The position numbers were made by a program. This document shows, in pieces, positions 12,001 to 15,000 of a stretch of DNA of 15,237 nt (position 1 is the first letter of the stretch; each line of letters begins with the position of its first letter). The stretch lies in NCBI GenBank assembly GCA_039679545.1, contig JBDKUT010000018.1, positions 1 to 15,237 on the forward strand, written 5' to 3'. Source of the stretch: Thermotogota bacterium (GTDB taxonomy: Bacteria; Bipolaricaulota; Bipolaricaulia; UBA7950; UBA9294).

Positions 12001-15000
12001 CTGCGCATTCGCTCCAATCCCTCGATGAGCATCGCCCGCGGGCAGGCAAAGTTCAGCCGAACAAACCCGTCGCCCTGGGGCCCAAAGATCGCTCCGGGGA
12101 TGGTCGCGACGTGGGCCTCGCGGAGGAAGAACTCGTAAGGGTCGCCCGGGATCCCCGCGTTCCTGCAATCGAGCCACGCCAAATACGTGGCCTCAATCGG
12201 AGTGACCCCGATGCCCGGCATCTCGGACCGAACGTAGTTGATCACGAAGTCGCGATTGGCGCGAACATATGAGAGGAGCTGGGCGAACCACGCGTCGCCG
12301 TCGCGGTAGGCGGCGAGCGCCCCGGCATAGCCGAGCGCACTGACAGACGGAACGAGGCCTCGCTTGGCCTGTACGTACTGCTCGCGCAGGTCCTTGTTCG
12401 GGATCACGGCGACGGCGAAGTGAAGCCCGGCTGTGTTGAACGCCTTCGAGGGAGACGTCAGGGTGATGGTTCGCGCCGCGATTTCCGGTCCAAGGGACGC
12501 GATTGGCGTGTGTCGCCGTCCGTCGTACACGAACGCTGCGTGGATCTCATCGGAGCAGATGAGAAGGTTGTGCTCCACGGCGATGTCCGCAACCCGGCGG
12601 AGCTCCTGCTCCGAGAACTCCCGTCCCACAGGGTTGTGTGGATTGCATTGCATGTAGAGGCGCGTGCGGTCCGTGAGGGTTCCCTCGAGGCGGTCGAAGT
12701 CGATCTCGTAGTGGCCGCTGGATGAACGGAACAGTGGGCAGTGCAGGGCCTCGGCGCGCGCGTTCTTCGGCGCCGCAAGGATCGGGTAGTAGACGGGAGG
12801 TTGGACGATGACGCCGTCGCCCGGTCGCGTCACCGCCTGGCACGCGAGGTTGAAGCCGACGACGACGCTCGGAAGGAACACGAACGCATCGGGGGCTACT
12901 CTCCACGAGTAGTGGCGCTCCAAGTATTCGACGAGGCGAGGGCGCAGCTCTTTGGGTTCGACCGTGTAGCCGAAGACCCCGTGCTCGACGCGACTCCTGA
13001 GCGCCTCGATGATGGAGGGAGGACAGAGGAAGTCCATGTCCGCAATCCACATCGGAAGAATGTCTTCATCGAAGGAGCTCCACTTGGTGCTGTCGGTGCC
13101 TCGTCGATCGATGATCTCGTCGAACAGGCCTGCAGGCATCTGGTTTGCCATAACCCCCTCACTCACCCGCCGTTGGTCTCAGCATTCTTGTTGGGTGGGG
13201 CGCTACGTGCAAGGGCGTCTGTCCATCCCAACCCAGGTGCGGAGTGGGCTCGGGAAAGAGGACGGGTTCCATCGACGGCTGTAGGTGAGTCCAGGAGGCA
13301 AAGAGAACGCGGCCGACTAACCATCGGCCGCGCGTCGGGTGGAGGTGGCGGGAGTCGAACCCGCGTCCGAAGCAACCGCCGGTCGGCGTCTACAGGCTTA
13401 GTCTCGCGGTTTGTCTCGACACGAGTCCTCCCACGAGCGGGATGGCGCGTGCCCAGCCTCCTTAGTGTTCATCGCGTCAGAGGAAGCGGCTGAACGCGGT
13501 ATACCCGCTAAGCGACGCCTACATAGGGCCCGCGGGAAACCCTACAAGACGGCCTTCTCTAGTTGAGAGAAGGAGCAGCGAATGCGTATGTCGCAGTCGT
13601 TGTGTTCGCAGTTGTTGTTTGGTTCGCCAGTTTAAGGAGATTGCGATGCTCCGCCTGCAGCCTTCGTTTGGTGGCTCCGTCGAAGCCAGTCACCCCCATG
13701 TCAAAGACCACACAACGATGATAGTCCGAACCGCCTCGGCGAGCAAGATTGCGATGGGGTTCAGGCCGTGGGCGCATCGCGCCGAGCTGCGCCATGGATG
13801 ACAATCGTATGGTCGAAGGAGGTTGACCGAACGAGCCGCGCGCTCTAGGCTTCTGCGCCATGAACCGAACCGACAAGGAATGCCTCATCGGGCTGAACTT
13901 GATCCCGCAGCTGACTCCGAAACGGGCCAAGCGCCTGTTCGCGCACTTTGAGTCATTCTCGGCGATTTGGGACGCGCCAGCGGGCCGGTTCAGCGAGCTG
14001 TTCGGGTCGGCCGTGCTCGGAGAAGCCATCGCGTCGGGGCGGAGCGACTCCGCCGTCGACGAGGAGATGGAGAAGGCCGAGAAGGCGGGAGTGCGGATCG
14101 TGACGCTTGTCGATTCGGAGTACCCGGCGCTGCTCCGGGAGATCGACGATCCGCCGCTCGTTCTCTACGCTCGCGGTCGTCTTCCGGTCGACACGTCGAC
14201 GGCGATCGCGGTGGTCGGCACCCGTCGCGGGACGCAGTACGGGAAGATGGTTGCGGCCAAACTGGCGAGTCAGCTTGCGCTTCGCGGGATCAGCGTCGTG
14301 AGCGGACTCGCGGCCGGAATCGACGCCGCTGCGCACCAAGGCGCGCTCGACGTTGGCGGTCAGACCGTCGCGGTTCTCGGCTGCGGAGTGGATGTCCCGT
14401 ACCCGAAGCGGAATCAAGCGCTGTATGAGCGGATCGCTGTCGAAGGGACCGTGCTCTCCGAGTACCCGCTCGGGATGAGGCCGGCGAAGTGGACGTTCCC
14501 GCAGCGGAACCGGATTCTGTCCGGCTTGTCACGCGGCGTGGTGGTCGTGCAGGCTCCGGAGCGGAGCGGCTCGCTGATCACGGCGCGTCTTGCCCTCGAG
14601 CAGGGCCGCGAAGTGTTCTCGGTTCCGGGGAACATCTCGACGACGACGTCGGCAGGAACGAACCGCCTGATCAAGCAGGGAGCGAAGCTCGTCGAGTCGG
14701 TGGACGACATCCTCGAGGAGTTCACCGACCTACGGCGGATCGTCCGGGGCGCGGCGCCCGCCGAGGAGGCCGAGGTGACCCTGACCGATCGGGAACGCCG
14801 TGTGTATGAGCTGATCAATCTTGAACCGGTTCACGTTGACGATATCATTGCCCGTGCGGATCTCTCGCCCACCGAAGCGTCGCATGTCTTGCTCCTTCTT
14901 CAGTTGGAGGATCTCGTCGTGGAGGTGGAGGGAGGGTGCTACGTGCGCAAGCCGTAGGAGGAAGAACAGGGATGGCCATACAACGAACGCTCGTCTTGTG

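What a model noticed while it worked through the whole genome (the two positions that open the first line are those of the whole stretch)
13337..13697. tmRNA tag ends in Leu-Asn, not Ala-Ala, in a phylum without ClpX
The genome's tmRNA (C18:13337-13697, minus strand) encodes the tag ANTTTATYAFAAPSLN; tags of relatives across the phylum likewise end in ...(A/S)LN or ...YN instead of the near-universal ...LAA, and clpX (whose product reads the LAA degron) is missing although clpP, clpC, hslUV, ftsH and a LonC-type protease are present. I read it as a re-wired trans-translation degron: stalled-ribosome products are marked with a C-terminal Asn tag for a protease/adaptor other than ClpXP. New: a distinct, phylum-wide SsrA degron, a handle to find its reader and a potentially orthogonal degradation tag for synthetic biology.
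Evidence so far: Rfam RF00023 full-length hit 160.2 bits; ARAGORN tag for C18. Tags read by ARAGORN from 30 tmRNA loci (own + 29 high-quality phylum genomes, call 152): 27 gave a standard tmRNA call, 24 of 27 end in LN (22) or YN (2), e.g. ADYATVPAYALN, ANNFAYATASLN, ANELAYAAPSLN, ADNLAFAVPSYN; 3 odd ones (..GP, ..AG, ..LS) look like frame mis-calls. zf-C4_ClpX PF06689: own 0, 1 of 184 phylum genomes, 10 of 10 bacterial controls; TIGR00382 absent from ncbifam.tsv. SmpB g00053, ClpP g00663, ClpC-like g00893, HslUV g01423-4, FtsH g01513, LonC g01041 in the tables. The second tmRNA on contig C27 (59 bits, tag AEPAWELAA) is seen in no other genome searched and is probably foreign.
(Added by a program. 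Inside this text positions count along the whole contig: contig position 1 is position 1 of the stretch shown here. "Call 12" and the like, gene names such as g00115 and contig names such as C1 are that model's own, and its searches are not shown. The text may have been shortened before it was handed on; [...] marks where a part breaks off. The agent that wrote the report below was given it as the finding of a first reader that could run no searches.)

Follow-up and report, generated by a model that had tools for sequence, protein, structure and literature searches.

The report
Asn-ending tmRNA tag after ClpX loss
In most Bipolaricaulota, and separately in some Omnitrophota, the gene for the usual protease partner ClpX was not found and the ribosome-rescue RNA encodes a disposal tag ending in asparagine instead of Ala-Ala, likely a retuned signal for another protease such as ClpCP.

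Summary
Real, but not phylum-wide. The tmRNA (13337-13697, minus) encodes ANTTTATYAFAAPSLN. Of 125 Bipolaricaulota tags read, 104 end LN, 7 YN and 5 LS. The last three codons are under purifying selection (omega 0.08-0.18; control 0.90). Nine tags, from three families, keep small non-polar ends, although clpX is missing there too (clpX in 1 of 184 genomes). So clpX loss allows the Asn end but does not force it. New here: the same thing happened in Omnitrophota. All 29 clpX-positive genomes end AA, against 7 of 39 clpX-negative ones, and 9 clpX-negative genomes end in Asn. Across both phyla, LonA, LonC and HslUV are each missing from some Asn-tag genomes, which leaves ClpCP, FtsH and the exported CtpA. 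ClpCP is my best guess, untested. Against a simple Asn degron: native proteins do not avoid terminal Asn (27 vs 24 expected), and no convergent residue was found in ClpC, FtsH or CtpA. The precedent is the Mycoplasma switch to Lon. This is a new variant of the SsrA degron, not found in ten paper searches; the tags may already be listed in the tmRNA database.

The parts
13337..13697 (-). tmRNA (ssrA), standard one-piece form
   Evidence: Rfam 160.2 bits, model 1-374; contigs of 4 RNA libraries cover 13337-13689 and neither flank
13559..13609 (-). Tag reading frame ANTTTATYAFAAPSLN plus TAG stop
   Evidence: homologous frames in 116 of 125 genomes read; omega 0.08-0.18 on the last three codons
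13610..13616 (-). Resume-codon upstream motif (A86-type)
   Evidence: sequence; the same kind of motif precedes the tags of the relatives
13553..13573 (-). Helix H5: stem over the Pro-Ser-Leu codons, with the Asn codon and the start of the stop in the loop
   Evidence: predicted -10.1 kcal/mol; similar predicted hairpins in relatives
13691..13697 (-). Acceptor stem, 5' strand (G3 of the G3-U alanine identity pair)
13341..13347 (-). Acceptor stem, 3' strand; followed by ACCC, so the terminal A of CCA is not encoded
13307..13333 (-). Intrinsic-terminator-like hairpin after the gene
   Evidence: 1 found; 0.7 expected in shuffles, so weak alone

Best explanation
This tmRNA encodes a tag ending Ser-Leu-Asn in a lineage where clpX was not found, and the tag likely still sends rescued, truncated proteins to destruction, most likely by ClpC-ClpP. 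Shown: the tag frame, its amino-acid-level conservation, the missing clpX beside an intact tig-clpP pair, and which proteases co-occur with Asn-ending tags. Inferred: ClpX is what holds tag ends at Ala-Ala; once it is gone the end is free to change, and in Bipolaricaulota and separately in Omnitrophota it settled on hydrophobic-Asn behind a hydrophobic, Pro-containing stretch. Inferred: ClpC, the only Clp ATPase with a ClpP-docking loop in the own genome, would grip that stretch in its D1 pore loops as ClpA and mycobacterial ClpC1 do with ordinary tags. The degron would be the last 6-9 residues together, not Asn alone.
For: Tag ends (L/Y)(N/S) in 116 of 116 genomes of eight families. All six Leu codons, both Ser codon families and all three stops are used. 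Parsimony omega is 0.15, 0.18 and 0.08 for the last three codons against 0.90 for the non-coding triplet after the stop (102 sequences). clpX in 1 of 184; tig lies beside clpP in 10 of 10 clpP loci, and other genes follow clpP where I read them. Omnitrophota: AA in 29 of 29 clpX-positive and 7 of 39 readable clpX-negative genomes; Asn ends in 0 of 29 and 7 of 39, plus 2 further clpX-negative genomes. Other phyla: clpX in 32 of 35 AA-tag genomes and 3 of 12 non-AA. Exclusion: LonA in 31 of 184, none in f1, f2, f3 and in 0 of 9 Omnitrophota Asn-enders, which also show no LonC-length hit; no HslU-type hit in single-contig G001 or in those 9. ClpP in 10 of 10 tested; ClpC in 32 of 32 Bipolaricaulota and 8 of 9 Asn-enders plus one fragment, with an (L/V/T)GF or IGF loop. 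ClpA binds ssrA tags directly with its D1 pore loops (PMC8666677, passages); M. tuberculosis ClpC1 unfolds SsrA-tagged protein (PMC6274998, abstract).
Against: No degradation was measured. FtsH and CtpA pass the same exclusion. ClpC shows no residue shared by Asn-enders of both phyla (best score 0.46), and its pore loops look the same in Asn and non-Asn genomes. The non-Asn families have the same ClpC, ClpP, FtsH, LonC and CtpA set. B. subtilis ClpCP needs an adaptor or phospho-arginine (PMC8138137, passages), yet McsB was found in 0 of 3 and ClpS in 0 of 3 Bipolaricaulota tested. Native proteins do not avoid terminal Asn (27 vs 24.4 expected) or LN (2 vs 1.8; no power). Most clpX-negative Omnitrophota chose other ends (25 of 39). 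Genomes are related, so the counts are not independent, and most are incomplete assemblies.
Confidence: 0.45

Rival explanations
1. FtsH is the main reader: the tag works as a C-terminal FtsH degron.
For: FtsH matches in 5 of 5 and 25 of 26 genomes tested, including all 9 Omnitrophota Asn-enders (8 over cut-off, 1 fragmentary). FtsH needs no adaptor (own knowledge) and degrades ssrA-tagged proteins in E. coli; its LpxC degron LAFKAPSAVLA resembles the internal AFAAPS stretch (PMC8138137, passages).
Against: Known C-terminal FtsH degrons end non-polar and FtsH is a weak unfoldase (own knowledge). No convincing convergent site: the best, a Cys at position 405, is in 14 of 15 Asn-enders but also 3 of 12 others, with 15 vs 12 related sequences and no null model.
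Confidence: 0.2
2. The tip is not a recognition signal. Several proteases read the internal hydrophobic core (YAFAA, PAY), and LN is kept for another reason: helix H5, efficient termination, or avoiding an unwanted interaction.
For: Many tags contain a near-canonical core followed by PSLN. Asn-to-Ser occurs 4 times on the tree. Terminal Asn is not avoided in the proteome. clpX-negative Omnitrophota end in many different dipeptides. The last codons overlap H5.
Against: Synonymous changes dominate at all three last codons, with no Lys, Asp, His or Phe variants in 102 sequences, which RNA pairing alone explains poorly. Asn recurs in a second phylum.
Confidence: 0.2
3. A dedicated reader binds the free hydrophobic-Asn end: an unknown ClpC adaptor, or the PDZ domain of the tail-specific protease CtpA for exported proteins.
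For: CtpA in 5 of 5 and 25 of 29 genomes tested, including 9 of 9 Omnitrophota Asn-enders. The Bipolaricaulota ClpC N-domain differs from the Omnitrophota one at its first motif, and no known adaptor was found.
Against: No gene family near ssrA, clpC or clpP is shared by Asn-enders of both phyla (99 loci). No convergent CtpA site (28 sequences). The Omnitrophota ClpC N-domain is conventional and McsB is present (2 of 2).
Confidence: 0.13
4. The tag frame is mis-called and the true tag ends conventionally.
For: ARAGORN misses the gene at default and mis-calls several relatives. Ordinary -AA ends can read xLN* in another frame.
Against: A resume motif at nt 86-94 opens this frame, the N-terminal part is tag-like (AN, AD, GN), and selection acts on this frame. 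The other frames give no Ala-ending peptide.
Confidence: 0.02

Closest known systems
Canonical SsrA degron read by ClpXP (E. coli AANDENYALAA)
   Same: Standard tmRNA with SmpB, resume motif, H5 stop hairpin and a hydrophobic tag core.
   Different: Terminal Ala-Ala-COO-, the most important ClpXP element (PMC7652416, passages), is replaced by Leu/Tyr-Asn, and clpX is missing.
Mollicutes specificity switch to Lon (Gur and Sauer 2008; seen only as cited in PMC8403727 and PMC7246954, passages)
   Same: ClpX lost, tag end changed, a different protease presumed to take over.
   Different: Mollicutes tags are long, end NYAFA and are read by Lon. Here ClpP is kept, LonA is absent from 153 of 184 genomes, the tags are 11-16 residues, the last residue is polar, and it arose in two phyla.
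Carsonella tag ending in Lys (PMC4131195, passages)
   Same: A non-hydrophobic terminal tag residue.
   Different: There it varies between strains of a degenerate endosymbiont; here it is conserved under purifying selection across eight families.
Lon C-terminal x-L/I-L/I/V-H degrons of Yersinia (PMC11986505, passages)
   Same: Hydrophobic residues followed by a specific polar last residue.
   Different: His, not Asn; native substrates, not a tmRNA tag; LonA is absent from most Asn-tag genomes.

Membership tests
tmRNA (RF00023) | Full-length covariance-model match | tested here: met
   160.2 bits against a cut-off of 47
tmRNA (RF00023) | Alanine-type acceptor stem with G3-U and T-arm | tested here: met
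   CCA not fully encoded
tmRNA (RF00023) | Resume motif, tag frame and stop at helix H5 | tested here: met
tmRNA (RF00023) | SmpB partner in the genome | tested here: met
   SmpB-like ORF at C2:24356-24991 (-) by motif match and inspection, no profile scan
tmRNA (RF00023) | Transcribed and used for tagging | tested here: inconclusive
   RNA-library contigs of 4 studies cover the gene and not its flanks, one 265-nt piece identical; contigs cannot prove transcription, and tagging was not testable
ClpXP-type SsrA degron | Terminal Ala-Ala | tested here: not met
   ends Leu-Asn
ClpXP-type SsrA degron | ClpX encoded | tested here: not met
   own genome 0; 1 of 184 in the phylum
Mollicutes Lon-type SsrA degron | Long tag ending NYAFA | tested here: not met
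   16 residues, ends SLN
Mollicutes Lon-type SsrA degron | LonA encoded | tested here: not met
   own genome best E 2.5e-7; 31 of 184 over cut-off, only f4, f5, f6, f8, f10
Any C-terminal degron | Tag confers degradation by a defined protease | not testable with these tools
   needs biochemistry
Any C-terminal degron | Avoided at native protein ends | tested here: inconclusive
   Asn 27 vs 24.4 expected (not avoided); LN 2 vs 1.8, too few

The most novel reading that the evidence does not exclude
A sequence-specific hydrophobic-Asn C-degron, read by ClpCP or an unknown adaptor, evolved convergently in two unrelated phyla after ClpX loss. It would be a third SsrA code beside ClpX (LAA) and Lon (YAFA), and a tag-protease pair that E. 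coli ClpXP would ignore.
Probability: 0.3. Interest if true: 0.8.

Novelty: new variant of a known kind. Interest (0 to 1): 0.58.

Why it matters
A 2020 paper still describes ssrA tags as ending LAA except in Mollicutes (PMC7246954, passages). These data show tag ends tracking clpX presence within one phylum and converging on a polar Asn end twice. That makes an open question directly testable: how do bacteria without ClpX dispose of trans-translation products, and can ClpC read a C-degron with no known adaptor? It also supplies natural tag and protease sets for engineering, if orthogonality holds.

Tried and rejected
HslUV, LonA and LonC as universal reader: rejected by absence in Asn-tag genomes. 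Convergent residues in ClpC (59 sequences), FtsH (27) and CtpA (28 of 30 loci extracted): none convincing. A shared adaptor gene near ssrA, clpC or clpP: none (99 loci, about 1.5 kb each side). Origin of LN by a frameshift through an old stop: not supported; Omnitrophota Asn replaces the last Ala in register, and the expected NGC codon at -3 is rare in Bipolaricaulota (4 of 102: AGC 2, TGC 2), although 77 of 102 hide a stop across the Leu/Asn codons. Single origin with simple inheritance: the Asn-tag families are not one clade. Viral scan: 18 loci, 9 with an ARAGORN call, none ending LN. The tmRNA database itself (Figshare flat file) was out of reach; the paper's supplement, which is held cut, has no phylum names and could not be read for tags, so these tags may be listed there. 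Three look-ups in earlier findings returned nothing. No structure or complex prediction and no protein-homolog search was run. RpoB extraction was wrong for two genomes and was redone.

Full report
Observation. Rfam finds a full-length tmRNA at 13337-13697 on the minus strand (160.2 bits). It has an alanine-type acceptor stem, and the last A of CCA is not encoded. ARAGORN does not call it at default settings; with -ps95 it gives ANTTTATYAFAAPSLN*, resuming at nt 89, and the other two frames are not tag-like. An SmpB-like ORF lies on C2 (motif match). Contigs from four RNA libraries of four studies cover 13337-13689 and neither flank; one 265-base piece that includes most of the tag is identical. 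This suggests expression but contigs cannot prove it. Named GTDB records carrying the same tags are Bipolaricaulota (Acetothermia, Fraserbacteria).

How wide. Of 151 phylum genomes searched, 126 had a tmRNA over cut-off. I read 125 with my own resume-motif caller (G128 is truncated; three were read without their 5' end): 104 end LN, 7 YN, 5 LS, and 9 end in small non-polar residues. The second tmRNA copies of G000 and G104 were left out of this count. The nine are all of family f7 (7 of 7, long tags of 21-30 residues), f9 and f11; the other eight families are 116 of 116 (L/Y)(N/S). So the tag is not phylum-wide. An RpoB+ClpC tree (18 taxa) puts the Asn families in two clades, (f1, f2, f3) and (f4, f5, f6, f8, f10), and rejects their monophyly (delta lnL 90.7, p-AU about 1e-9; fast trees, 2,000 replicates, below the recommended number). 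The root is unstable, so an early gain with reversions, two gains or transfer all remain open.

Is the end selected as peptide? In 102 sequences the penultimate codon uses all six Leu codons plus TAT, the third-last uses both Ser families, and all three stops occur. Parsimony on a tree built from the non-tag parts gives synonymous/non-synonymous counts of 18/6, 18/5 and 6/4 (omega about 0.15, 0.18, 0.08), against 0.90 for the triplet after the stop. All four changes at the last codon are Asn to Ser. Overlap with helix H5 is a confound.

ClpX. TIGR00382 is over cut-off in 1 of 184 genomes, on a 1.7-kb contig, and in all 10 bacterial controls. tig lies beside clpP in 10 of 10 clpP loci, and other genes follow clpP where I read them, which points to true deletion. 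f7 (0 of 19), f9 and f11 lack clpX too, so its loss is wider than the Asn switch.

A second phylum. My caller scored 46 as in frame: 39 with Bipolaricaulota-type tags (some labelled Thermotogae or uncultured by submitters; placement not tested), 3 Omnitrophota, and 4 mis-calls that ARAGORN reads as ending AA. Twenty loci lacked my 5' motif; ARAGORN gave non-Asn tags for 17 and no call for 3. In 121 Omnitrophota genomes clpX was over cut-off in 49, and I counted 4 fragmentary hits as positive. I read 70 of 108 tmRNAs (the 30 best scoring plus 40 I picked). All 29 clpX-positive genomes end AA (one by ARAGORN only). Of 41 negative ones, 2 were unreadable, 7 end AA, 7 end in Asn (GLN, ILN, GIN, CFN, LAN, FAN twice) and 25 end otherwise (AL, PL, GY, AW, PW, VA and others). 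Two more Asn-enders from the scan also lack clpX. Most Asn-enders fall in one clade; G242 sits apart with weak support. In 47 hand-picked genomes of other phyla, clpX was found in 32 of 35 with AA tags and 3 of 12 with other ends, none of them Asn. Kin are not independent and assemblies are incomplete, so these are patterns, not tests.

Which protease. LonA is in 31 of 184 Bipolaricaulota, only f4, f5, f6, f8 and f10, and in 0 of 9 Omnitrophota Asn-enders, which also show no LonC-length hit. HslU is in the own genome, but no HslU-type hit appears in single-contig G001 or in those nine. What remains in the Asn-enders tested is ClpP, ClpC, FtsH and CtpA. ClpC carries the ClpP-docking loop; the second Clp ATPase of the own genome is ClpB-like and lacks it. 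ClpA engages ssrA tags through D1 pore loops (PMC8666677, passages) and M. tuberculosis ClpC1 unfolds SsrA-tagged protein (PMC6274998, abstract), so I favour ClpCP at 0.45, FtsH at 0.2, an unread tip at 0.2 and a dedicated binder at 0.13.

Against. No convergent residue marks ClpC, FtsH or CtpA of Asn-enders, no shared neighbour gene was found, and non-Asn families have the same protease set. McsB was found in 0 of 3 and ClpS in 0 of 3 Bipolaricaulota, and B. subtilis ClpCP needs such help (PMC8138137, passages). Among 1,490 genes from my own gene caller, 27 end in Asn (24.4 expected), 2 in LN (1.8) and 38 in AA (24-30). Asn alone is therefore not an avoided signal, and AA is not avoided, as fits the loss of ClpX.

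Literature. Ten full-text searches listed no paper whose title or opening lines concern Asn-ending tags or tags of these two phyla; I did not open the four listings naming Bipolaricaulota with tmRNA or the one naming Omnitrophota. PMC7246954 (passages) says tags end LAA except in Mollicutes. PMC4131195 (passages) calls a hydrophobic last residue usual. PMC11915505 (parts 1-4 of 5, supplement searched) remarks on two-residue tags but not on these. PMC7652416, PMC8403727, PMC10862746 and PMC11986505 were seen as passages; Gur and Sauer 2008 only as cited.

Verdict. A true tmRNA with a real, selected, non-canonical tag end. It works like the Mycoplasma switch but is not a member of that type. New variant of a known kind; the convergence in Omnitrophota raises its interest, while the lack of an identified reader and the exceptions lower it. 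Interest 0.58.

Noticed in passing
G000:C58:5237-6424 (L557); L555, L556, L558: RqcH (NFACT_N) is over cut-off in 4 of 4 Bipolaricaulota tested although its alanine tails are ClpXP signals in B. subtilis. It scores high in G045 and G003 but is eroded in G000 and G001, including the motif I recall as reading the tRNA-Ala anticodon; in G001 it lies two genes before tig-clpP.
   Followed up: partly
G000:C65:1806-4226 (-): The ClpC N-domain of Bipolaricaulota lacks the FTERA motif kept in Omnitrophota (recalled as a phospho-arginine site), and McsB was found in 0 of 3 genomes: a ClpC without a known activator.
   Followed up: partly
G000:C105:33483-35708 (+); L140: A 741-residue ClpB-like ATPase that lacks the middle domain and the ClpP-docking loop; also in G142.
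   Followed up: no
G000:C27:1839-2177 (-), L537; G104:C123 (L107): Second tmRNAs with other tags (AEPAWELAA; ANDNASVLALVA). The 3.6-kb C27 contig has ORFs with at most weak unknown-function PHROG hits (2 of 6); foreign or mobile origin not settled.
   Followed up: partly
Omnitrophota loci L316-L389: clpX-negative genomes show a radiation of tag ends (AL, PL, GY, AY, AW, PW, VI, VR) on tags of up to about 35 residues.
   Followed up: partly
L080, L081, L089, L092, L097, L538, L539 (family f7): Long tags (21-30 residues) resembling Mollicutes tags in length, in genomes with neither ClpX nor LonA.
   Followed up: no
L147, L148, L150 (G001, G045, G052): Double-AAA proteins of about 770 residues that look CDC48/VAT-like by inspection; none listed for the own genome.
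   Followed up: no
L111 (G040:C19), L112 (G007:C63): The only clpX of the phylum sits on a 1,697-base contig (possible misbinning, untested); G007 has a sub-cut-off 382-residue ClpX-like protein.
   Followed up: no
window 11910-13151 (-) and 13860-14957 (+): Neighbours are a PatB-type C-S lyase and a divergent dprA; no link to the tag seen.
   Followed up: yes
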